DNA from: Minisyncoccota bacterium
GTDB lineage: Bacteria; Patescibacteriota; Minisyncoccia; Phycocordibacterales; JABAAK01
Direction: 5' to 3'
Length of the DNA: 64,000 nucleotides
Assembly (NCBI GenBank): GCA_963668425.1
Contig: OY764332.1
Coordinates: forward strand, 359,504-423,503
In this document: positions 2,900 through 37,915 of the stretch, in pieces
How positions within the stretch are numbered: the first letter of the stretch is position 1
Layout of the letters: the number at the start of each line of letters is the position of its first letter
Notes under the pieces: generated by a model
Told to the model about the DNA's origin: nothing
The model's input: only the letters and a program-made list of their open reading frames with translations
The model's database searches: none
Position numbers and translations under genes: made by a program

Positions 2900-5254
2900 A
2901 TGATTTTGTATATAGATACCCTTGCCCTACTGTACCGTGCGTATTATGCATTTCCTGATTTGCGGGCGTCTGATGGTACACCTGCAGGAGCGTTATTCGG
3001 ACTGACGAATACACTTTTTCGTGTTGTTGCTGAGATGGAGCCGGATCATATTGTTGCGTGTTTTGACAGACCAGAGGAAACTTTTCGGCAGCAGTTGCAC
3101 GCTGAGTATAAGGCGAATCGTGAGATGCCGGAGGAGGATATGATTATGCAGATTGATTTGTCGCGGGAAATGTTGCAGTCGTATGGTGTGCATACTGTTG
3201 AAAAAGCAGGATACGAAGCGGATGATTTATTAGGGACACTTGTTGTTATTGATGCAAAACGTGAAGAAGAAGCGGTTATTGTCTCTGGTGATGGGGATTT
3301 GTTGCAGTTGACAGTGTATCCGAATGTGCGTGTGTATTTACTTCGGAAAGGGATGAGTGACTTTGTGTTGTATGACGAGAAGGAGGTAGAGAAGAAGAAT
3401 GGGTATCCGGCGAGGTATGTTATTGATTATAAAGGACTTGCGGGAGATAGTTCTGATAATATCACTGGTGTTCCGGGTGTTGGTGATGTCTATGCGAAGC
3501 GACTCATTACTGCTTTTGGTGATCTTGATGCGATTTATAAGGCGGTTGACGCCGAGGTTTTAGAAGGTGAGGGGTTTACAAAGCGGATTGTTACCTTGCT
3601 TGAGCAAGGTCGTGACAGCGCGTTTGCCTCGCGTGAGTTGGCGACTATTCATACTGATGTGCCGATTATTGCTCCACACACCAAGGCAAAGAAATGGAAA
3701 GATTTCATAGTATATTCTGATGCTCAGAAGATGCTTGAACGATATGCTTTCACATCACTCTTGTCGCGCTTGAGTGCTATTACTGGAGGTGGTGATGGTG
3801 CTGGAGGCAATAATGGATCTTCTGACGTTGTTGACACACCTTCTGGCGCTGTTTTTGAGGATGCTGCTACTCGGGCGGTGTCTGTCGCATTGTGGGTACT
3901 TGATGCGACCAAAACAAATGCAAGTTTTGAAGATGTGTGTGTTTGTACTGGTCAGCGTTCTCCAGAGGATGCACTTGCGTTTATTGAGAAGGAGTTGAAG
4001 GCGAATAACTTGTTGTCGGTGTGGAGGGATATTGAGCAACCACTTCTTCCTGTTGTTGAGGAGATGGAGCGGATTGGAGTTTGTTTTGACTTACAGGGTG
4101 CGAAAAGATTGAGCGGTATGTATCAGAAAAAGATTGCATCTTTGACAAAAGAAATATACAACCTTGTTGGCAAAGAGTTTAATATTAGTTCTCCGAAGCA
4201 ATTAAGTGAGGTGTTGTATGGTGATCTTAATTTAAAGCCAAGGCGTGCATCAAAGACCGCTTCTGGAGGAAAGACGACCAAGGAATCAGTGTTGTTGCAA
4301 ATGGTTGATGATCATCCTGTTGTGTCGTTGGTGCTTGAATATAGACGTTATGAGAAATTGCGCTCCACCTATGTTGATGCATTGCCTTCGTTTGTTGCTG
4401 CTGATGGGCGAATACACACAACCTTACAACAGAATGGGACAGTGTCAGGACGGTTTTCTTCTCGAGATCCGAATTTGCAGAATATACCAGCTGGTGGTGA
4501 GGATGGTATCGCTATTCGCAATCTGTTTGTTGCTGCTGATGGGTGGGAGATGGTGGCAATTGATTATTCGCAGGTGGAGTTGCGGCTCGCCGCTATTTTG
4601 TCGCAAGATAAGGCACTATTGGATGTTTTTCGACGAGGTGTGGATGTTCATCGGGCAGTTGCTGCGCAGGTTTTTTCGGTTTCGCAGGATGCTGTAACAC
4701 CAGAGCAGCGTCATAATGCGAAGACAATTAATTTTGGGGTTCTTTATGGCATGGGGGCACAGTCACTGAGTCGTTCGTTGGCTGTCCCGTTGACTGAAGC
4801 AGATGCATTTCTCACTGACTACAAAAAAGCATTTCCGGCGTTGTTTGATTACCTTGATGGACTCAAAGGAGAAGCGTTGACTTCTGGTTTTGTGACCACT
4901 GCGTTTGGGCGGGTGCGACCGATTAGTGGTATCACCTCTTCACTTGCTTTTGTGCGGGCACAAGCAGAGCGGACTGCTGCAAATACAGTGATACAAGGTA
5001 CCGCCGCTGATATCACCAAGATTGCGATGGTTCGTGTTGATGCGATGTTGAAAGAGACAGGGTTGGTGGAAGATGTGCGCATGCTGTTGCAAATTCATGA
5101 TGAATTGTTGTTTGAGATTCGCCCTCGTGTTGCTGATCGGGCGATAGAGAAGATTGTAGAGGTGATGGAATCGGTGTATCCGGAGAATAAGAAGCCAATA
5201 CCACTGTTGGCAAGTGTTGGCAGAGGGAAGTCGTGGGGGATGTTGAAAGAGTGA
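2900..5254 (+). CDS. polA: DNA polymerase I. It has a 5'-3' exonuclease domain plus a family A polymerase domain, with only a ~100-aa vestige where the 3'-5' proofreading domain would be.
   Basis: N-terminal 5' nuclease region (LYRAYYAFP, GDSSDNITGVPGVG). Pol A motifs 'RDPNLQNIPAGGEDGIAIRNLF', 'RHNAKTINFGVLYGMG', 'QIHDELLFE'. Start moved to the internal ATG (MILYIDTLALL). Confidence 0.9.
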   Translation: MILYIDTLALLYRAYYAFPDLRASDGTPAGALFGLTNTLFRVVAEMEPDHIVACFDRPEETFRQQLHAEYKANREMPEEDMIMQIDLSREMLQSYGVHTVEKAGYEADDLLGTLVVIDAKREEEAVIVSGDGDLLQLTVYPNVRVYLLRKGMSDFVLYDEKEVEKKNGYPARYVIDYKGLAGDSSDNITGVPGVGDVYAKRLITAFGDLDAIYKAVDAEVLEGEGFTKRIVTLLEQGRDSAFASRELATIHTDVPIIAPHTKAKKWKDFIVYSDAQKMLERYAFTSLLSRLSAITGGGDGAGGNNGSSDVVDTPSGAVFEDAATRAVSVALWVLDATKTNASFEDVCVCTGQRSPEDALAFIEKELKANNLLSVWRDIEQPLLPVVEEMERIGVCFDLQGAKRLSGMYQKKIASLTKEIYNLVGKEFNISSPKQLSEVLYGDLNLKPRRASKTASGGKTTKESVLLQMVDDHPVVSLVLEYRRYEKLRSTYVDALPSFVAADGRIHTTLQQNGTVSGRFSSRDPNLQNIPAGGEDGIAIRNLFVAADGWEMVAIDYSQVELRLAAILSQDKALLDVFRRGVDVHRAVAAQVFSVSQDAVTPEQRHNAKTINFGVLYGMGAQSLSRSLAVPLTEADAFLTDYKKAFPALFDYLDGLKGEALTSGFVTTAFGRVRPISGITSSLAFVRAQAERTAANTVIQGTAADITKIAMVRVDAMLKETGLVEDVRMLLQIHDELLFEIRPRVADRAIEKIVEVMESVYPENKKPIPLLASVGRGKSWGMLKE

Positions 5255-30808: not shown

Positions 30809-33800
30809 ATGAGTATTACAAATAAAGTAACCGTAGGGTTAGTTTCTTTTGCTTTCGTCTTTTCTTTTGTTGTGGTTAATTCTGTAACCGCACAGAACGA
30901 CGAAGATCAAATAGCCACTCTTCAGGCGCAGATTGCACAATTGCTTGAGCAAATCAAGGGATTGGAATCAGGGCAGACGAGTGGTGGTAGTAGCAGTACT
31001 TACACTGCCACTGCTACAGGAAGCAATGCAGCATGTTCATATACATGGACACGAAACCTTTCCATAGGATCTACTGGCGATGACGTCCGCCAGTTGCAAC
31101 GATTCCTCAATGGTAACCCTCAAACTCAAGTAGCTGTAACAGGTGTTGGTTCTCCTGGTAATGAGTCTAGCTACTATGGACCTGCAACCGCTCGGGCGGT
31201 GAGCAAGTTCCAAGAGATGTATGCTGCGCAAATCTTGACTCCGCTTGGTCTGACGAATGGTACTGGTGGTTTTTACACCTCAACACGTGCCCGCTTGAAT
31301 GAAGTGTGTCAGGGAAGCAGTGGAAGTGGATCTGGTATTTCAGTTAATCATGCTGGAACACGATCAGCGACTTCGCCTGCTGTTGTGCGGGTAACGGGTG
31401 ACGCCCTTGCAGTAACGGCTGGAAATCCAATCAGTGATTCATATGTTGTGCTTGGTGCGCAACGAGCGCCGTTTACCTCGGTTGTGTTGACCGCAGGATC
31501 TGATGATGTTCGGATAGAGAGTATTCGTATTAAGCGATTCGGACTCTCTTCATCTGACAACTTTGAGAGTATTGCGTTGGTTGATGCCAATGGTGTACAA
31601 GTTGGCTCCGCTCGATCGTTGAACAGTCGGGATGAGGTTAGCTTAGGTAGCAATTTTATAGTGCCGGCGAATCGATCAGTAACCTTGGCGGTCATTGGTA
31701 ATATGTCCAGTGATACTGACGAGTTTACTTCAGGATCTATCGCAGGTCTTGAGGTGGCAGAGGTTGTCGCTGATGCTCGGGTTCAGGGTACATTCCCAAT
31801 TCGTGGAGCAGCTCACGTTCTTTCGACGAGTATTGAACTCCAGAAAGTTGAGATTGAAGTGAGTGGAGGAGGTGGTAGTATTGAGTTTAATGAGGATACT
31901 GAGGTTGCCTCAGTTTCTATTGATTTGAGATCTGAGACCGTTGGAGGTGTTGATGCTGATAAGGAGGATGCGTATCTTCGGTCTGTTATTCTTGAGCAGA
32001 TTGGTAGTGTAGATGCTAGTGAAATCGGAGATCTCACAGTGTTTGTGGATGATGATAGAGTTGACCATGTTATTGCTGTTGATCGTGACCGTTTCATTAT
32101 CAATTTTGGTGGTAAGGGTGTAATGATTGAAGAAGGTGATGATGTGGAAATAACCGTTGAGGCGAACACCGATCGTGGCTATGAGGAGACCGTGCAGTTT
32201 GCTATTGATGACATGTCTGATGTGTATATTCTCGGTGCGAGTTATGGCTATGGTCTGCCGGTTTGTTTTGCAGGTGACGATAATTGTGATGGTAAGCAGG
32301 ATGAGACTGATTCATGGGACGATAACACCAAGACCTCTGTGGCGACTATTTCTTCCGGAAAGATTGCTAAAGGTGATCGTCTGAAGAAGTTTGAGGATGA
32401 AGTTCACTATGGCGACGATGTTATCCTTGGTGCGTATTCTGTTGAATTTGAGGGTGAAGATGTTTTGATGGAAGACCTAACTTTTGAAGTTTCGTTGAGC
32501 AATTATCCATGGACAAGCACCAGCGACAATGCGTGGGTAGACGCGGATGAGGACACTGTTCGTTTTGATAGTGTTCGTCTGCGAGTGGATGGTGAGAATG
32601 TCGCCTACGCTAGTGACAGTATTGACTTTGATGATTCGGATGCGGATGGTACTAGTATAGATTTGGATGTTGAATTTGATGGTGGTTTCACCGTTGATGT
32701 TCGTGATGATCGCGAAGTTATCTTTGAGATTGTCGCTGATCTTGATGCGGCATGGGGTCACTTCGAAGGCACATCTGTTGAATTTACCCTTACGGATGTT
32801 GATACTGCCGAGGGTGTGAGTTCTGAACGGGACTACACCGCTACGGGTGAGTACTTTGCGTCTGCTATTGAATTTGAAGATGTGAAGATTATGGGTAATG
32901 AGATTTCCTTTGATATTAACGATGATGGTGTTGATGGTACCAGTTTCGTTAGAGGTGCTGACAGTGTCGTGTTTGGTACCTTTGAAGTTGATGCGAAGGA
33001 TGCTATTGATGATGTGGAATTGCGTGATCTCTACTTGAGCTTCCAGATTCCATCTGACTCTGACCTTAGCACTGCTGTTGGTGACTTGAGTGATTTGAAT
33101 AACTGTCGCATTCTTGACGAAGGTGGTGATGAGATTGCCGATAGTCGTGGTGTTACAGGTGTGAAAGTAGCTGCTGACACTGATGTGGTAAATGATCAGG
33201 CGCGATTCCGATTTGACGACTATGTTGTTGAAGCAGGAGAGCGTGAGGATATGGATATCGTCTGTGATATTGATGACGGAGCTGACTCTGGAGATGCATT
33301 CAGGATTTCTGTTGATGTTAGTTCTACTGTGAATGACCGTGTGAAGTATAGAATTGGTCGAGATGAGGATGACATGTCGCTTGGTACTGGTTCGTCATCT
33401 ATTATTCAGATTGGTTCAAGTGGTGAGCTTACGATCTCAACAGATTACCCTGATGAGGATGAGGCTGTTATAGCAGTGGCAACTGGTAAGAGCGGTGCTG
33501 ATGATGTTGCTGTGCTTGAGATTGAGCTTGAGGCGGAGAAAGAAGATATAGAGATTTTAGATGTGTATCTCTCGCTCCCAACAAACATGGGTGCTCAAGT
33601 TGGCGGTAGTGCTGTTACTGTAGATGCAGATGAGCTGGAGGAGGTGTATGATCGCTTTACTCTGAAACTCGGTAACACGACCGCTGATGTGGATGATTAT
33701 ATGGCAACTGAGACATTTGCTGCGGCTGATTATGTCAATCAAAGTAGTGATGTTACTGGCACTAAATTAGTTATGTTTGAAGATGTGAATGAGATTGTTC

Positions 33801-34537
33801 GGGAAGGTGATGACAATGCGGAGACATTTGACCTGACATTTGACTTTAATGGTATTGACGATGATGATGGTGTTGCCGGTCAGTTTATTAAAGGATTCGA
33901 ATTGATTGTTGTTTGGGAAGGTGATGATAGTGGTACGGTTAACCTTACTAGACACACAATTGGTGATATCTTTACTGTTGCGTTGCCATTCCCAACTGTG
34001 CCGACTGTTTCAACGACGGAGACGAATCGCACATTGCAGGTAAGCGAGCAGAAGATCTATGAATTTACCGTGAATGCTGATGATGAAGGTGATGTGTATC
34101 TTGGTCAGGTTGGGTTTTCTATCAGCTTGAGCGATGGTGCCCAAATTGACGCAGGAGGTATTAAAGTCTATCGGGGTACTGGTAACAGTGGTGATTCTCG
34201 CGGTACGAATGCTTCTGCTGCTTCTGCTGCTACGAAGGTTGAGTTTACCACTCCTGAGCGAATTGACGCTGGTGAATCAAGAACGTACTCAGTGTATGCT
34301 GATGTGGGGGATGGTCTTGGGGAGAATGCTTCTGTAACTGTTCAGTTACTTCACGATGAGAAAGAGACCACTCCAGAGGCCGGTCGTCAGCATGGGGCAG
34401 CAAAAACAGCTGGTAACTTTGTTTGGTCACCGAATGCGCTTGACAATGACGGAGCGAAAACTAGCAATGCTGACTGGTTTACTGGTTGGACGGTTGTTAA
34501 GGACTCTGACACTAAGCAGTGGCGCCTTGAGAGATAG
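30809..34537 (+). CDS. Large (1242 aa) secreted, strongly acidic protein with an N-terminal signal/TM, a coiled-coil, a peptidoglycan-binding (PG_binding_1-like) domain and a long D/E/V/G-rich beta-type body.
   Basis: 'LSIGSTGDDVRQLQRFLNGNP...YYGPATARAVSKFQEMYAAQILTPLGLTNGTGGFYTSTRARL' fits the PG-binding domain pattern. The rest is low-complexity acidic. Confidence 0.5.
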   Translation: MSITNKVTVGLVSFAFVFSFVVVNSVTAQNDEDQIATLQAQIAQLLEQIKGLESGQTSGGSSSTYTATATGSNAACSYTWTRNLSIGSTGDDVRQLQRFLNGNPQTQVAVTGVGSPGNESSYYGPATARAVSKFQEMYAAQILTPLGLTNGTGGFYTSTRARLNEVCQGSSGSGSGISVNHAGTRSATSPAVVRVTGDALAVTAGNPISDSYVVLGAQRAPFTSVVLTAGSDDVRIESIRIKRFGLSSSDNFESIALVDANGVQVGSARSLNSRDEVSLGSNFIVPANRSVTLAVIGNMSSDTDEFTSGSIAGLEVAEVVADARVQGTFPIRGAAHVLSTSIELQKVEIEVSGGGGSIEFNEDTEVASVSIDLRSETVGGVDADKEDAYLRSVILEQIGSVDASEIGDLTVFVDDDRVDHVIAVDRDRFIINFGGKGVMIEEGDDVEITVEANTDRGYEETVQFAIDDMSDVYILGASYGYGLPVCFAGDDNCDGKQDETDSWDDNTKTSVATISSGKIAKGDRLKKFEDEVHYGDDVILGAYSVEFEGEDVLMEDLTFEVSLSNYPWTSTSDNAWVDADEDTVRFDSVRLRVDGENVAYASDSIDFDDSDADGTSIDLDVEFDGGFTVDVRDDREVIFEIVADLDAAWGHFEGTSVEFTLTDVDTAEGVSSERDYTATGEYFASAIEFEDVKIMGNEISFDINDDGVDGTSFVRGADSVVFGTFEVDAKDAIDDVELRDLYLSFQIPSDSDLSTAVGDLSDLNNCRILDEGGDEIADSRGVTGVKVAADTDVVNDQARFRFDDYVVEAGEREDMDIVCDIDDGADSGDAFRISVDVSSTVNDRVKYRIGRDEDDMSLGTGSSSIIQIGSSGELTISTDYPDEDEAVIAVATGKSGADDVAVLEIELEAEKEDIEILDVYLSLPTNMGAQVGGSAVTVDADELEEVYDRFTLKLGNTTADVDDYMATETFAAADYVNQSSDVTGTKLVMFEDVNEIVREGDDNAETFDLTFDFNGIDDDDGVAGQFIKGFELIVVWEGDDSGTVNLTRHTIGDIFTVALPFPTVPTVSTTETNRTLQVSEQKIYEFTVNADDEGDVYLGQVGFSISLSDGAQIDAGGIKVYRGTGNSGDSRGTNASAASAATKVEFTTPERIDAGESRTYSVYADVGDGLGENASVTVQLLHDEKETTPEAGRQHGAAKTAGNFVWSPNALDNDGAKTSNADWFTGWTVVKDSDTKQWRLER

Positions 34538-34571
34538 TGCAGTTCTGAGATTTGCCATCAACTATGGCAAT

Positions 34572-34728
34572 CAAAACCAAAAACCCGCTGAAAGAAAAGC
34601 GGGTTTTTGGTTTGTCTCGTAGGGGTTACTTGAGCAATCTATTGAACAGAGAATATTTGGATGGGATACTGTACTGCATTGCCCAACATCCTATGTGTTG
34701 GCAGAGAGTGCAAAACTGGTGCTTAGGT
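34572..34728. repeat. Direct repeat copy 1 (~150 bp incl. a 23-bp insertion). Contains a bidirectional terminator-like hairpin AAAAACCCGC-TGAAAGAA-AAGCGGGTTTTT followed by a conserved ~90-bp segment.
   Basis: Near-identical to 35744-35880, with about 5 substitutions in the shared ~130 bp. Confidence 0.85.
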
Positions 34729-35019
34729 TGCGTATTTTACAGTGTTGATTGCAATAACAATAAGTCCGGTAACCCCAGAAACCAATAGGATTGACTGAAT
34801 GGCAATATATAGCCAGCTCTTCTTGAGCGATTCTTTGATTTTTTGATCAATAGTATCACCAAACTTCCCACTATCTATGTGCTCTCCTATGATGGTTTTG
34901 ATTATTCTTTCAACCTCCTTGCTTTCAGAAAGCATGTGTAGCATGCGGCTTTCAAAGTCTTCATTAGCAACAAACGTGTCTCGTTGTTTATCTGTGATTG
35001 TTTCTTTATTTTTTGCCAT
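34723..35019 (-). CDS. Hypothetical small tail-anchored membrane protein (98 aa, single C-terminal TM).
   Basis: ORF with 'WLYIAIQSILLVSGVTGLIVIAI' C-terminal helix. A-rich codon usage unlike the flanking genes. Overlaps the upstream 73-aa ORF by 14 nt. Confidence 0.35.
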   Translation of the reverse strand: MAKNKETITDKQRDTFVANEDFESRMLHMLSESKEVERIIKTIIGEHIDSGKFGDTIDQKIKESLKKSWLYIAIQSILLVSGVTGLIVIAINTVKYAT

Positions 35020-35227
35020 CTTTCATTTCATCAGAGGGTGTGTATTTTTTGGAGCCAACAGATAACCCCTGTCCTTTTGACTGCTCTGCAACATCCAAGA
35101 GAAAGGCAATTGTGCTTGCATCTCCTTTCATTCCGTACTCTTTAGTGATGGTGCGAAGTTTGTCAAAGTGTCCGTTAGTGAATTCAACGTTAATCTTGTT
35201 GTCAGTGTTTTCTAAGTTGATAGCCAT
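35006..35227 (-). CDS. Hypothetical small soluble protein (73 aa), first gene of a two-gene minus-strand pair.
   Basis: ATG start. A -10-like CATACT lies immediately upstream, so the transcript may be leaderless. No recognised domain. Confidence 0.3.
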   Translation of the reverse strand: MAINLENTDNKINVEFTNGHFDKLRTITKEYGMKGDASTIAFLLDVAEQSKGQGLSVGSKKYTPSDEMKDGKK

Positions 35228-35340
35228 ACCAATAGTATGCCATGACTGCCTAATCTGTGCTATTCTGAAGACACAATAGTTTTCCCCACGTTAACCACAT
35301 TTTTTGTTGGTTGCCGTTGAAACTGAAAGCATTGAAATGA

Positions 35341-35358
35341 CTCCTCTACGGAGAGGAG
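35341..35358. promoter_or_regulatory. Perfect 18-bp palindrome CTCCTCT-ACGG-AGAGGAG in the divergent intergenic region between the small-gene pair and the STAS-like gene. Candidate operator or hairpin.
   Basis: 7-bp arms with a 4-bp spacer. Followed by a T-run and a TATACT -10-like box 7 nt before the ATG at 35391. Confidence 0.35.
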
Positions 35359-35390
35359 TAGGGGTATTTTTTCTTTTGTATACTAAATAT

Positions 35391-35723
35391 ATGAAAAAAG
35401 TGTTTCTTAAAGCATATGGCACTGTCTTGGTTGGTAGGAAAGATGGTACTGAGGCATTTGTTGCACTAGAGAGAAATATGCGGGACATGCCTGAGGGTGA
35501 GGTACTATTTTTTGATTTTTCAGACATTATCACCTTTGCACCAACATGGTGTGATGAGTTCTTTGGAGAAGCTACAATCAAATATCCTGGAAGAATAGTC
35601 ATTGATGAATCAATTGGCGAAGGATTAAGGAAGCCCTTTGAGGTTATAGCAGAAGCAAGAAAAATAGCATTCACTTTTGGATCGTTTGTTGAAACCAAGA
35701 ATGAGAAGATGAGCCAAGATTAA
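35391..35723 (+). CDS. Small STAS-like (DUF4325-like) domain protein (~110 aa).
   Basis: The pattern 'K.YGTVLVGRKDGTEAF..LE......EGEVLFFDFSDIITFAPTWCDEFFGE' resembles the DUF4325 STAS-like signature (..DF..V..isSSF.DEl.G.). Start moved to the internal ATG 'MKKVFLKAYG'. Confidence 0.35.
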   Translation: MKKVFLKAYGTVLVGRKDGTEAFVALERNMRDMPEGEVLFFDFSDIITFAPTWCDEFFGEATIKYPGRIVIDESIGEGLRKPFEVIAEARKIAFTFGSFVETKNEKMSQD

Positions 35724-35743
35724 GGAATGATACACCGGCAACC

Positions 35744-35880
35744 TAAAACTAAAAACCCGCTGAAAGAAAAGCGGGTTTTTGGTTTGTCTTCTATTGAACA
35801 GAGAATATTTGGATGGGATGCTGTACTGCATTGCCCAATATCCTATATGCTGGCAGAGAGTGCAAAACTGGTGTTTAGGT
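35744..35880. repeat. Direct repeat copy 2 (~130 bp); see copy 1.
   Basis: Shares the AAAAACCCGCTGAAAGAAAAGCGGGTTTTTGGTTTGTCT...GGCAGAGAGTGCAAAACTGGTG core. Confidence 0.85.
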
Positions 35881-35896
35881 GATATAGTAGAAGTAT

Positions 35897-36367
35897 ATGG
35901 GAGATATAGCATTTACTGTTAATGCACTAAATGTATTAATTGCGTGTGGAGGATTAATTGCACTCACTTTGGGGTGGTTATTCAAAATACACGGCAGGGT
36001 GTCAGAGCTTGAAGGCATAAACAAAGGTAAAGAATTAGCAAAAGAACAAAGCCCACTTACTCTCACAGATGCAGGCAATGCCTTATTGTGTGATAGTGGT
36101 GGTAAAAAATACATTGAAGATAACGAAAAATCATTGATAAAAAACTTTAATGACTTGGACAATGCTTTTGATATACAGGAGAAGGCAAAAGACATAATAC
36201 GGGAAAAGATGAAAGAGCCAAACGCTCTTAAAAATATCAAGATATACCTTTTTGATAATGGAAAGTCCGTTGAAGATATAGTTTTGGTGATGGGGTTGGA
36301 ATTGCGCGATGCTGTCTTTAAGCATAAAGGTATAGCAGTTGAGCAAGTGGACGCAGACAAAAGTTGA
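35897..36367 (+). CDS. Hypothetical membrane-anchored protein (N-terminal TM + ~120-aa soluble domain) immediately upstream of the MTase-HNH gene.
   Basis: 'VNALNVLIACGGLIALTLGWLF' helix. A-rich codon usage. No family recognised. Confidence 0.35.
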   Translation: MGDIAFTVNALNVLIACGGLIALTLGWLFKIHGRVSELEGINKGKELAKEQSPLTLTDAGNALLCDSGGKKYIEDNEKSLIKNFNDLDNAFDIQEKAKDIIREKMKEPNALKNIKIYLFDNGKSVEDIVLVMGLELRDAVFKHKGIAVEQVDADKS

Positions 36368-36463: not shown

Positions 36464-37915
36464 ATGCTTGTGGTTTATACTGTTTTCAAGATGTCTACTC
36501 CTAATTTCAAGCCGAATACACTCTTCACGAGAGATAATTTGTATATTTTGCGTGGCATGAACAGTGAGTGTGTTGACTTGATATATCTTGATCCGCCATT
36601 TAATTCAAAAAAAAACTATGTTGCACCTTTGCCTGTGAAGGATGAAGAAATACTTGCCTCATTCAAGGATGTATGGAAACTCATTGATATTGATGAAGCG
36701 TTGCATGAGGAATTGCAGGAGACTCAGCCATGTTTGTATGAGATTATTAAGGGTGTTGAAGCAGCACACTCCAAGGCGATGTTTTCATACTTGATATACA
36801 TGACCATGCGACTGGTTGAAATGCATCGTGTGCTAAAACCAACAGGAAGTATATTTCTGCACTGCGATCCAACGGCAAGCCACTACTTAAAAATAGTGAT
36901 GGATTGTATTTTTGGAAAGAGTAATTTTAGAAATGAGATTATTTGGTGTTACGGTGAAACGGCCAGAGGTGCAAAGGCAAAAGCCAGTCAGTTTGCACGA
37001 AATAATGATGTGATACTTTTTTACGGAAAAACAAGTCAACATCTCTTTAACAAAACATATTTTGAAAGGAAAATAAAGTTTGAGGGGTCAGGGTATCAGC
37101 GGGAGGATGATGGACGATGCTTTAGAACAGCACCACGAGGCGATTATACAGATGACAGTATTGAAAGGTTAAGAAGGGAAGGTAGGATTTATGAGACAAG
37201 AAACGGGACTATACGCATTAAATATCATGAAAAATGTGATGAAACCTTTGTGTATGAAAAAAAACTTTTTGGTAATGTTTGGTCAGATATACCTGATATG
37301 ATGCACGCAGAAGAGATAGAAAAAACCGGCTATTCAACTCAAAAGCCGTTAAAACTATTACAGCGAATCATCAATACAGGTAGCAAAAAAGGTGGTTGGG
37401 TACTTGACCCATTCTGTGGATGTGCAACTACCATGGTTGCCGCAGAAAAACTGGGGAGGAAGTGGGTTGGCATTGATGCCTCTCATTTTGCAAAATTTTT
37501 TGTTAAAAGCAGAATGGAAAAAGAATTGGAGAAAAAAATTCCTTTTATTTTTCTCAAGGATATATCTGGTAGGCAGTTCAGTGATGAAAAAGAATTGAGT
37601 GATTGGGAAAATAAGAAAAGGATGTATGAAGAGCAGGAAGGTGTATGCAATGGATGCGTTGGTCATTATCATGAAAAAGATATGACTATTGACCATATCA
37701 TACCAACATCAAAGGGCGGTCAAGACACACAAGATAACAAGCAATTACTTTGTTTTCACTGTAACACGACAAAGGGGACAGGAACAATGCCAACGCTATG
37801 GCAAAAACTTGCAAAAGGGCATGTATTGGAGTATCACGAAGCGGATAAACTCATACAAGAGCACAAAGACAGAAAAAAGAAACTTGAAAAAGAGTATGGA
37901 ACTAAAACACTATGA
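36464..37915 (+). CDS. DNA methyltransferase (beta-class N6-adenine/N4-cytosine type, motif IV before motif I) fused to a C-terminal HNH endonuclease domain.
   Basis: 'DLIYLDPPFNSKKNY' (DPPF catalytic motif) near the N-terminus and 'VLDPFCGCATTMVAAEKLGRKWVGID' (SAM-binding motif I) near residue 315. C-terminal 'CNGCVGHYHEKDMTIDHIIPTSKGGQDTQDNKQLLCFHCNTTKG' is a Zn-finger HNH motif. Confidence 0.8.
   Translation: MLVVYTVFKMSTPNFKPNTLFTRDNLYILRGMNSECVDLIYLDPPFNSKKNYVAPLPVKDEEILASFKDVWKLIDIDEALHEELQETQPCLYEIIKGVEAAHSKAMFSYLIYMTMRLVEMHRVLKPTGSIFLHCDPTASHYLKIVMDCIFGKSNFRNEIIWCYGETARGAKAKASQFARNNDVILFYGKTSQHLFNKTYFERKIKFEGSGYQREDDGRCFRTAPRGDYTDDSIERLRREGRIYETRNGTIRIKYHEKCDETFVYEKKLFGNVWSDIPDMMHAEEIEKTGYSTQKPLKLLQRIINTGSKKGGWVLDPFCGCATTMVAAEKLGRKWVGIDASHFAKFFVKSRMEKELEKKIPFIFLKDISGRQFSDEKELSDWENKKRMYEEQEGVCNGCVGHYHEKDMTIDHIIPTSKGGQDTQDNKQLLCFHCNTTKGTGTMPTLWQKLAKGHVLEYHEADKLIQEHKDRKKKLEKEYGTKTL

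What the first reader, a model, noticed from the sequence alone, without database searches (positions are those of the whole stretch)
35228..35400. Perfect 18-bp palindrome between divergently transcribed small genes whose -10 boxes sit 6-7 nt before the ATGs (possible leaderless, autoregulated pair)
The palindrome CTCCTCTACGGAGAGGAG (35341-35358) lies between the minus-strand pair (start 35227) and the STAS-like gene (start 35391). A TATACT box sits 6 nt upstream of the 35391 ATG. A CATACT box sits immediately upstream of the 35227 ATG. Both would give leaderless mRNAs. This architecture is typical of toxin-antitoxin or regulator-controlled addiction modules: a palindromic operator in a divergent promoter, a small soluble protein followed by an overlapping membrane protein. 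The 98-aa tail-anchored protein is a plausible membrane-disrupting toxin.
Basis: inference. Interest (0 to 1): 0.5.

Follow-up and report, generated by a model that had tools for sequence, protein, structure and literature searches.

The report
Gene remnant mistaken for palindromic operator
The "palindromic operator" is an imperfect hairpin inside the leftover tail of a lost ATPase gene, sitting where two unrelated small gene cassettes meet in a variable island of a Kaiserbacteria genome, and start codons placed right after a promoter box are normal throughout this genome.

Summary
The genes and start codons are real, but the description is only partly right. The palindrome is not perfect. It has 8-bp arms (35340-35347 and 35352-35359) around a non-symmetric ACGG, and it is one of about 13 such inverted repeats in the window.

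It lies inside a roughly 90-nt remnant (about 35295-35386) of the 3' end of a GHKL-ATPase-like gene. In intact relatives (L005, L008, L014) that gene immediately precedes the STAS-like DUF4325 gene. The palindrome spells codons T-P-L-R-R-G-V of the remnant. The "TATACT -10 box" is the old Val-Tyr-stop (GTA TAC TAA). The palindrome is absent from all 16 related loci.

TATACT 5-10 nt before a start codon is a genome-wide trait here (9 of 52 sites against 39 of 2011 for controls), so it is not a toxin-antitoxin hallmark.

The minus-strand pair is a recurrent, independently mobile two-gene cassette found in defence islands. It consists of a 73-aa protein with a predicted ribbon-helix-helix fold and a translationally coupled 98-aa tail-anchored membrane protein. 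A toxin-antitoxin-like role is plausible but untested.

A 156-nt direct repeat carrying a bidirectional terminator flanks the three genes.

Verdict: mostly ordinary, with modest interest.

The parts
34573..34728 (+). Direct repeat, copy 1 (about 156 nt; carries a 20-nt insertion at 34618-34637 relative to copy 2). Its last 6 nt hold the stop codon of the 98-aa gene.
   Evidence: D2 is 45 nt at 98% identity and D1 is 91 nt at 95% identity, with spacings of 1172 and 1152 nt; there are only two copies in the window.
34574..34613 (.). Bidirectional intrinsic terminator: a perfect 16-bp stem with an 8-nt loop, an A-run on one side and a T-run on the other. It serves the convergent 1242-aa gene (+) and the 98/73 pair (-).
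   Evidence: I2. The identical second copy was scored as a terminator on both strands.
34723..35019 (-). Gene for a 98-aa tail-anchored membrane protein. It is the second gene of the pair and overlaps the 73-aa gene by 14 nt.
   Evidence: family of 12 members with no Pfam domain; a C-terminal hydrophobic stretch is present in all 12; dN/dS is about 0.32; the AF2 model is all-helical but low confidence.
35006..35227 (-). Gene for a 73-aa soluble protein with a predicted ribbon-helix-helix-like core (beta-beta-alpha-alpha-beta-beta). It is the first gene of the pair.
35234..35242 (-). Extended -10-like box TGGCATACT. The hexamer ends 6 nt before ATG 35227 (positions -12 to -7 if transcription starts at the A).
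   Evidence: Homologous genes carry TGGTAnnnT 6-9 nt before the ATG in L002, L005, L010 and L012, and GCTATAGT in L009.
35295..35386 (+). Remnant of the 3' end of a lost GHKL-ATPase-like gene. It reads ...LVAVETESIEMTPLRRGVGVFF, then a 1-nt deletion in the T run, then the old Val-Tyr-stop GTA TAC TAA at 35378-35386.
   Evidence: intact 272-274-aa genes sit directly upstream of the STAS-like gene in L005, L008 and L014; alignment score 46, reached by 1 of 5000 amino-acid shuffles and 0 of 2000 nucleotide shuffles; a 1-nt indel relative to L002/L005.
35340..35359 (.). Imperfect palindrome / hairpin with 8-bp arms and centre ACGG. It equals codons T-P-L-R-R-G-V of the remnant. An alternative pairing, CCTCTAC(8)GTAGGGG followed by a T run, looks like a terminator on the + strand.
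   Evidence: absent from all 16 related loci; no consensus structure.
35379..35384 (+). TATACT -10-like hexamer, 6 nt before ATG 35391. It is derived from the Tyr-stop codons of the lost upstream gene and is probably the promoter of a leaderless STAS-like mRNA.
   Evidence: Conserved as TATACT in L001 and L005; TACACT in L002.
35391..35723 (+). Gene for a 110-aa STAS-like (DUF4325) protein. Here it is an orphan, with no partner ATPase in the window.
   Evidence: dN/dS is about 0.19-0.20; no ATPase homologue in the window.
35745..35880 (+). Direct repeat, copy 2. It contains the second bidirectional terminator (35746-35785) and ends where the extended -10 of the next gene begins (its last base, T 35880, is the T of TGATATAGT 35880-35888; ATG at 35897).

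Best explanation
Region 35228-35390 is not a shared, operator-controlled divergent promoter. It is a junction between two independent small cassettes in a hypervariable (defence/mobile) island of a Candidatus Kaiserbacteria genome. The island lies between a conserved 1242-aa surface protein gene and the Peripla_BP/UvrA genes.

Left cassette (minus strand). This is a recurrent two-gene unit. Its first gene encodes a 73-aa protein with a predicted ribbon-helix-helix fold, and its second encodes a translationally coupled 98-aa tail-anchored membrane protein. It is expressed from its own extended -10 box (TGGCATACT), probably as a leaderless mRNA.

Right cassette (plus strand). This is an orphan STAS-like DUF4325 gene. 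Its former upstream partner, a roughly 273-aa GHKL-ATPase-like gene, has been deleted except for its last 30 or so codons. The imperfect palindrome lies in that remnant, at codons TPLRRGV. The TATACT box is the remnant's Val-Tyr-stop, which happens to sit at -12 to -7 from the ATG and most likely now drives a leaderless STAS-like transcript.

What is shown: gene content, the remnant homology, non-conservation of the palindrome, the genome-wide -10/start geometry, and purifying selection on all three genes.

What is inferred: that the boxes are active promoters with transcription starting at the ATG, that the RHH-fold protein represses its own promoter at a still unidentified operator, and that the pair acts as a toxin-antitoxin-like or abortive-infection-like module.
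For: Remnant:
- In L005, L008 and L014 a 272-274-aa protein ends 0-5 nt before the STAS-like ATG. It carries ExxDNAFSHN, CDFGxGF and GGNGL motifs and gives weak HATPase_c hits.
- The C-termini read ...KGSGVFFSLVY* and similar.
- The window reads LVAVETESIEMTPLRRGVGVFF in one frame. The alignment score is 46, against 17-25 in the other two frames. It is reached by 1 of 5000 amino-acid shuffles and 0 of 2000 nucleotide shuffles.
- L002 keeps RKGSGVFFSLVH* (score 66), and L007 keeps an internally deleted copy.

Palindrome:
- It is imperfect and unique to this genome.
- RNAalifold finds no conserved pairs, and the fold z-score is -0.2.

Independence of the cassettes:
- The contexts show each cassette occurring without the other.

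Genome-wide leaderless geometry:
- TATACT followed at 5-10 nt by the start of an ORF of at least 100 aa occurs at 9 of 52 sites, against 39 of 2011 for permuted hexamers (Fisher p = 1.6e-6).
- This includes the neighbouring MTase-HNH, Peripla_BP and UvrA genes.
- Homologues of the 73-aa gene carry TGGTAnnnT 6-9 nt before the ATG.

RHH fold:
-.

Real genes:
- dN/dS is 0.09-0.32.

Organism:
- Source names of L006, P0009 and P0024.
Against: - No transcription start sites are known, so the promoters and the leaderless status are consensus-based.
- The ATPase assignment of the lost partner is weak. It rests on Pfam hits below threshold (E 0.008-0.05) and motifs read by eye, with no PDB or NCBIfam support.
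- The window lineage raised pairing in the palindrome from 4 of 8 (L002) to 8 of 8 pairs. This leaves room for a lineage-specific selected hairpin or binding site.
- Remnants of about 80-90 nt are retained in three different contexts (window, L001, L002). This could mean the remnant has a function, such as a promoter or insulator.
Confidence: 0.75

Rival explanations
1. First reader's model. The hairpin at 35340-35359 is a palindromic operator in a shared divergent promoter. It is bound by the 73-aa RHH-fold protein (or by the STAS-like protein) and co-regulates a toxin-antitoxin pair together with the STAS-like gene.
For: - The 73-aa protein has an RHH-like predicted fold, as many autoregulating antitoxins do.
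- An 8+4+8 inverted repeat has the right size for an RHH tetramer.
- It overlaps the -35 region (-51 to -32) of the putative STAS-like promoter.
- The window lineage has 8 of 8 paired positions, against 4 of 8 in L002.
Against: - The palindrome is imperfect.
- It lies inside a coding remnant.
- It is 113-132 nt from the 73-aa start, outside that gene's promoter.
- It is absent from every locus carrying homologues of the pair or of the STAS-like gene.
- The divergent arrangement is unique to this genome.
- STAS domains are not DNA-binding.
Confidence: 0.08
2. The hairpin plus the downstream T run (CCTCTAC-8 nt-GTAGGGG-TATTTTTTCT) is an intrinsic terminator or insulator. It is carried at the 5' edge of the STAS-like cassette and blocks read-through from whatever lies upstream. 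In intact operons it would attenuate transcription between the ATPase and STAS genes.
For: - The terminator scan reports it on the + strand.
- L005, L007 and L014 can also form GC-rich hairpins a few nucleotides before the same T run.
- In three different contexts about 80-90 nt of remnant is retained.
Against: - The T run is simply the codons Val-Phe-Phe of the ATPase C-terminus.
- There is no consensus structure and no covariation.
- Fold z-scores range from -1.5 to 0.
- The best 8-bp stem is 7 nt away from the T run.
- In the window there is no co-directional upstream gene to terminate.
Confidence: 0.12
3. The hairpin is a chance product of neutral drift in a decaying pseudogene remnant. 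It has no function at all, and the STAS-like gene is itself on the way to being lost.
For: - The remnant is frameshifted.
- About 13 comparable inverted repeats exist in the window.
- No ATPase partner is present in the window.
- L005 carries a second, truncated STAS-like copy, which shows that decay occurs in these islands.
Against: - The STAS-like gene itself is under purifying selection (dN/dS about 0.19-0.20), so it is not decaying.
- For the hairpin alone, this reading is compatible with the best explanation and is in fact part of it.
Confidence: 0.55

Closest known systems
Type II toxin-antitoxin operons with a ribbon-helix-helix antitoxin encoded first (CopG/Arc/MetJ-type: ParD-ParE, MazE-MazF of M. 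tuberculosis, TacA-TacT, RelB-RelE)
   Same: - Two small genes that overlap (14 nt here; 4-17 nt in relatives).
- The first product has a predicted RHH fold.
- Several paralogous copies occur per genome: five family members on one 847-kb contig.
- The cassette sits in variable islands beside R-M, SMODS/SLATT and SocA_Panacea genes.
   Different: - The second product is a small tail-anchored membrane protein with no similarity to any known toxin family. Type II toxins are normally soluble enzymes.
- No operator has been identified.
- Neither toxicity nor neutralisation has been tested.
Partner-switching modules: GHKL serine kinase / anti-sigma factor plus a STAS-domain antagonist (RsbW-RsbV, SpoIIAB-SpoIIAA); Pfam DUF4325 (PF14213) 'STAS-like'
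   Same: - The 110-aa family matches PF14213.
- In L005, L008 and L014 it directly follows a protein of about 273 aa with Bergerat-fold-like motifs.
   Different: - In the window the kinase-like partner is reduced to a remnant of about 30 codons.
- The gene order is kinase first, then STAS.
- There is no sigma factor gene nearby.
- The ATPase assignment is below Pfam thresholds.
Leaderless mRNAs with a -10 box about 6-8 nt before the start codon (as described for Actinobacteria and Deinococcus-Thermus; GeneMarkS-2 'group C' genomes; from my own knowledge of the literature)
   Same: A -10-like hexamer at -12 to -7 from the A of the ATG, with no Shine-Dalgarno sequence. This holds for both genes of the finding and for many other genes in the window.
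   Different: - It is not specific to this locus.
- There is no experimental TSS data for this organism.
- I found no paper in the held library describing this for CPR bacteria.

Membership tests
Type II toxin-antitoxin module (RHH antitoxin first) | Two small adjacent, co-oriented, overlapping or coupled genes, conserved as a pair | tested here: met
   There is a 14-nt overlap in the window. The pair is conserved in L001, L002, L009, L010/11, L012, L015 and L016 with overlaps of 4-17 nt. L005 has the small gene without the partner.
Type II toxin-antitoxin module (RHH antitoxin first) | The antitoxin has a DNA-binding fold (ribbon-helix-helix) | tested here: inconclusive
Type II toxin-antitoxin module (RHH antitoxin first) | The toxin belongs to a known toxin family or fold | tested here: not met
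   There are no significant Pfam, NCBIfam or PADLOC hits. None of the 12 family members has a domain. The AF2 model is low confidence (pLDDT 61).
Type II toxin-antitoxin module (RHH antitoxin first) | A palindromic or repeated operator overlapping the module's own promoter, conserved with the module | tested here: not met
   The palindrome is 113-132 nt upstream of the start, inside a gene remnant, and absent from all homologous loci. The upstream DNA of homologues shares only the -10 box.
Type II toxin-antitoxin module (RHH antitoxin first) | Growth arrest caused by the toxin and rescue by the antitoxin | not testable with these tools
   This requires expression experiments.
DUF4325 / STAS-like partner-switching protein | Match to PF14213 above the curated threshold | tested here: inconclusive
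   The window protein scores 15.3 bits against a cut-off of 23. All 5 family members match at E of at most 1, best 1.6e-6. P0005 carries a precomputed PF14213 assignment.
DUF4325 / STAS-like partner-switching protein | An adjacent GHKL-type ATPase/kinase partner | tested here: not met
   The partner is present in L005, L008 and L014. In the window only a remnant of about 30 codons is left, and there is no homologue elsewhere in the 64 kb.
Leaderless transcription unit | A -10 hexamer ending about 6-7 nt before the start codon and no Shine-Dalgarno sequence | tested here: met
   TATACT at 35379-35384 plus 6 nt, then the ATG. CATACT at 35239-35234 plus 6 nt, then the ATG.
Leaderless transcription unit | A mapped transcription start at, or within a few nucleotides of, the start codon | not testable with these tools
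   No transcriptome data are available.
Palindromic operator | Dyad symmetry beyond chance and conservation with the regulated genes | tested here: not met
   There are two central mismatches. About 13 comparable inverted repeats occur in the window. The core motif occurs in 18 of 100 shuffles and is absent from the 16 loci.
Intrinsic terminator | A GC-rich hairpin immediately followed by a U run, downstream of a co-directional gene | tested here: inconclusive
   The scan reports an alternative 7-pair stem plus TATTTTTTCT. There is no co-directional gene upstream in the window, and no conserved structure.

The most novel reading that the evidence does not exclude
The 73-aa RHH-fold protein and its translationally coupled tail-anchored partner form a previously undescribed toxin-antitoxin or abortive-infection family. 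It appears to be confined largely to CPR bacteria related to Kaiserbacteria. It would use a small membrane protein as effector under protein (RHH) control, and it spreads as a cassette of about 0.5 kb among defence islands. In addition, the retained tail of about 90 nt of the lost ATPase gene would have been exapted as the promoter of the orphan STAS-like gene, with the Val-Tyr-stop codons reused as a -10 box for a leaderless mRNA.
Probability: 0.3. Interest if true: 0.5.

Novelty: new member of a known kind. Interest (0 to 1): 0.25.

Why it matters
The main value is corrective. A feature that looks regulatory, a hairpin between divergent genes, turns out to be leftover coding sequence. The "leaderless" geometry is a property of the whole genome rather than of this pair. 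That matters for anyone annotating promoters, operators or toxin-antitoxin systems in CPR genomes from sequence alone.

Three secondary points are worth a modest follow-up:
- The RHH plus tail-anchored-protein cassette is an uncharacterised, multi-copy resident of Kaiserbacteria defence islands. It is small enough to test easily for toxicity and immunity.
- The window supports widespread leaderless-type promoters (TGnTATACT 6-10 nt before the ATG) in a CPR genome.
- The island appears to grow by units of about 1.15 kb bounded by terminator-containing direct repeats.

Tried and rejected
- Exact look-up of the window's STAS-like protein in the contig index found nothing, so relatives were used instead.
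- Rfam found nothing in 34400-36000 apart from a sub-threshold Thr_leader hit on the terminator.
- RNAalifold on seven upstream regions predicted 0 pairs. Single-sequence fold z-scores were not significant.
- PADLOC and NCBIfam gave no hits for the 73-aa, 98-aa, 110-aa and 156-aa proteins. For the intact ATPase partners, only very weak DrmA or unrelated hits appeared.
- PDB sequence searches with the profiles of the 73-aa family, the ATPase and the STAS-like family returned nothing meaningful.
- The AF2 model of the 98-aa protein was too poor (pLDDT 61) for a fold search.
- Extended ORF 35304-35723 (139 aa, TTG start; called as 136 aa in L002) was rejected as the true gene. There is a 1-nt indel between the window and L002 in the T run, and the extension is the ATPase remnant.
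- A search for an operator in 35228-35300 found only weak, non-significant repeats (ACTATTG twice; CTATT/AATAG). Nothing was shared with homologous promoters.
- The idea that the pair always travels with the MTase-HNH gene was rejected. That holds for L009 and L010/11 but not for L012, L015, L016, L001 or L002.
- The literature search for leaderless translation in CPR bacteria and for DUF4325 function gave nothing usable.

Full report
**1. What the sequence shows**

The two start codons exist: ATG 35391 (+) and ATG 35227 (-).

The palindrome at 35341-35358 is not perfect. CTCCTCTACGGAGAGGAG differs from its reverse complement at positions 8 and 11. It is therefore a pair of 7-bp arms around a non-symmetric ACGG, extendable to 8-bp arms at 35340-35347 and 35352-35359.

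TATACT (35379-35384) does lie 6 nt before ATG 35391. CATACT (35239-35234, minus strand) is not immediately upstream of ATG 35227. It lies 6 nt before it and is preceded by TGG, giving TGGCATACT. Neither start is preceded by a Shine-Dalgarno-like sequence.

Perfect inverted repeats with arms of at least 8 bp and loops of 3-8 nt occur at about 13 distinct places in the window. That is 21 counted with nesting, against about 5.3 in Markov-1 simulations. The core CCTCT-N(0-8)-AGAGG turns up in 18 of 100 shuffled windows. The hairpin is therefore real but unremarkable.

**2. The organism and the island**

Homologues carry the source names "Candidatus Kaiserbacteria" (L006, P0009, P0024). The window's proteins come from a single 696,550-bp contig.

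The locus sits between a 1242-aa PG_binding_1 surface protein (30809-34537) and a Peripla_BP_6 gene followed by a UvrA-like gene. In L002 the same two flanks enclose completely different small genes, including two SocA_Panacea genes. This is a hypervariable island.

**3. The STAS-like gene and what precedes it**

*Family assignment.* The 110-aa protein has only a handful of close relatives. All five family members match PF14213 (DUF4325, "STAS-like"), best E 1.6e-6. The window protein alone is below threshold.

*The upstream partner in relatives.* In L005, L008 and L014 the gene is immediately preceded by a 272-274-aa gene. The gap is 4-5 nt, or there is an ATGA overlap. Its product carries ExxDNAFSHN, CDFGxGF and GGNGL motifs and gives weak HATPase_c / HATPase_c_2 hits (E 0.008-0.05). 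The ancestral unit therefore looks like a GHKL-ATPase plus STAS-like pair, reminiscent of partner-switching modules. The ATPase assignment remains weak: there is no NCBIfam, PADLOC or PDB support.

*The remnant in the window.* These ATPase-like proteins end ...KGSGVFFSLVY* (L005), ...GANVFFSVKY* (L008) and ...GANIFFTINYSL* (L014). The window's "intergenic" DNA 35295-35390 reads in one frame PHFLLVAVETESIEMTPLRRGVGVFFLLYTKY.
- It aligns to the L005 C-terminus (LIAVKNESAETPSLETSSFKGSGVFFSL) with score 46, against 17-25 in the other two frames.
- That score is reached by 1 of 5000 amino-acid shuffles and 0 of 2000 nucleotide shuffles.
- L002 retains RKGSGVFFSLVH* (score 66).
- L007 retains an internally deleted copy.
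- Relative to L005 and L002, the window has lost one T in the T run. This breaks the frame just before the old Val-Tyr-stop, GTA TAC TAA at 35378-35386.

*Consequences.*
- The palindrome is the codon string ACT CCT CTA CGG AGA GGA GTA (T-P-L-R-R-G-V) of a gene remnant.
- The T run is Val-Phe-Phe.
- The "TATACT -10 box" is Tyr-stop of the lost gene.
- The longer ORF 35304-35723 (139 aa) is an artefact of this remnant.

*Orphan status.* No ATPase homologue exists elsewhere in the window. The STAS-like gene is nevertheless under purifying selection (dN/dS about 0.19-0.20 against L001, L002 and L005).

**4. Is the hairpin conserved?**

It is not.
- The equivalent L002 sequence pairs at only 4 of 8 positions, and L001 has no counterpart.
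- The core motif is absent from all 16 fetched loci, about 140 kb holding at least 8 STAS-like homologues and more than 10 copies of the pair.
- RNAalifold predicts no consensus pair.
- Fold energies are not better than shuffles; the window's z-score is -0.2.
- The terminator scan does report an alternative stem (CCTCTAC / GTAGGGG) followed by TATTTTTTCT on the + strand. Some relatives can form other hairpins before the same T run. An insulator or attenuator role therefore cannot be excluded, but it has no statistical support.

**5. The leaderless geometry is genome-wide**

In the window, TATACT is followed at 5-10 nt by the start of an ORF of at least 100 aa at 9 of 52 sites. For the 59 permuted control hexamers the figure is 39 of 2011 (odds ratio 10.6, Fisher p = 1.6e-6).

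The nine include the neighbouring MTase-HNH (36476), Peripla_BP (38050) and UvrA-like (39311) genes. Many sites are preceded by TG/TGG, that is, extended -10. Most homologues of the 73-aa gene carry TGGTAnnnT 6-9 nt before the ATG; the two L001 copies have a GGGGGAA Shine-Dalgarno-like sequence instead.

It describes how this genome starts many of its transcription units and is no signature of an addiction module. Transcription starts remain unmapped.

**6. The minus-strand pair**

*The 73-aa protein.*
- It belongs to a narrow family with no Pfam or PDB sequence match: 39 clusters at 90% identity and 73 at 50% identity.
- AlphaFold2 with the family alignment gives a confident beta-beta-alpha-alpha-beta-beta model (pLDDT 87).

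*The 98-aa partner.*
- It overlaps the 73-aa gene by 14 nt.
- Its family has 12 members and no domain.
- All members have a C-terminal hydrophobic stretch (KD19 1.5-2.3).
- Its structure model is poor.

*Selection.* Both genes are under purifying selection (dN/dS 0.09-0.15 and about 0.32).

*Genomic contexts.* The pair occurs:
- next to N6_N4 MTase(-HNH) genes (L009, L010/L011);
- next to SMODS + SLATT_4 (L015);
- next to AAA_21 (L016);
- next to a CarboxypepD_reg gene (L012);
- on either side of the STAS-like gene, co-oriented with it, in L001 and L002.

Several paralogues can share one genome: five members lie on one 847-kb contig.

*Reading.* The pair is therefore an autonomous cassette typical of defence or mobile islands. 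A TA-like or abortive-infection-like role, with an RHH regulator/antidote and a membrane effector, is the most economical hypothesis. It is inference only. The "toxin" matches no known family, and no operator could be found. Upstream DNA of homologues shares nothing beyond the -10 box.

**7. Cassette boundaries**

The three genes are bracketed by a direct repeat of about 156 nt: 34573-34728 and 35745-35880. Identity is 95-98%, with a 20-nt indel, and these are the only two copies in the window.

Each copy starts with a perfect 16-bp-stem bidirectional terminator. Copy 1 ends in the stop codon of the 98-aa gene. Copy 2 ends where the extended -10 (TGATATAGT) of the following 156-aa gene begins, overlapping it only by its last base (35880).

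L001 shows the same periodicity. A unit of terminator, spacer, pair, remnant and STAS-like gene repeats at 1152-1154 nt. In the window the spacing is 1152/1172 nt. The 91-nt non-terminator part has no predicted structure and no Rfam match. Unequal or homologous recombination at these repeats is a likely way for the island to gain and lose units (inference).

**8. Verdict**

Its central claim is not supported: the data do not show a palindromic operator in a shared divergent promoter of an autoregulated module.

The region is best read as the junction of two independent cassettes, one of which carries the fossil 3' end of a deleted gene. Interest is modest. The uncharacterised RHH/tail-anchored cassette and the pervasive leaderless-type promoters of this CPR genome are the parts worth a follow-up.

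Noticed in passing
window 34573-34728 and 35745-35880: A direct repeat of about 156 nt (95-98% identical, with a 20-nt indel at 34618-34637) brackets exactly the three genes of the finding. Each copy begins with a perfect 16-bp-stem bidirectional terminator. L001 shows the same periodicity of about 1152 nt (terminator, spacer, pair, remnant, STAS-like gene). This suggests the island grows by tandem units or recombination at the repeats.
   Followed up: partly
window-wide, e.g. 2853, 30500(-), 36476, 38050, 39311, 57645(-), 62911: TATACT, often as TGnTATACT, lies 6-10 nt before the start codons of many long genes that lack a Shine-Dalgarno sequence. The count is 9 of 52 TATACT sites against 39 of 2011 control sites. 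This points to widespread leaderless-type transcription units in this Kaiserbacteria genome.
   Followed up: partly
window 36464-37915 (+): This gene encodes an N6_N4 DNA methyltransferase fused to a C-terminal HNH nuclease domain (Pfam 1.7e-39 and 4.6e-11). Its real start is probably ATG 36491, which lies 9 nt after a TATACT. A 44%-identical MTase-HNH directly follows the homologous RHH/TM pair in L010/L011.
   Followed up: partly
window 35897-36367 (+); L005 3938-4402(-), 4641-5120, 6366-6887; L002 9448-10116, 10167-10835: The 156-aa protein has an N-terminal hydrophobic segment and no known domain. It is another multi-copy resident of these islands, with three paralogues in L005 and two in L002. 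Its function is unknown.
   Followed up: no
L007 3822-4071: In a Peribacteria MAG the ATPase-like partner gene is internally deleted. An N-terminal fragment of about 38 aa and a C-terminal fragment of about 50 aa lie in different frames directly before an intact STAS-like gene. This is a second, independent case of partner loss with the STAS-like gene kept.
   Followed up: partly
L005 6924-7070: A second, truncated copy of the STAS-like gene (residues 55-103, 65% identity) lies about 600 nt downstream of the intact one.
   Followed up: no
L015 1427-3569 (-), next to the pair at 3790-4249: A SMODS nucleotidyltransferase plus a SLATT_4 membrane protein (a CBASS-like pair) sit divergently next to a copy of the RHH/tail-anchored cassette in another genome of about 647 kb.
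   Followed up: no
window 30809-34537 (+): A 1242-aa, highly acidic, repeat-rich secreted protein has an N-terminal PG_binding_1 domain. It borders the variable island, and its C-terminal part is conserved in L001 and L002.
   Followed up: no
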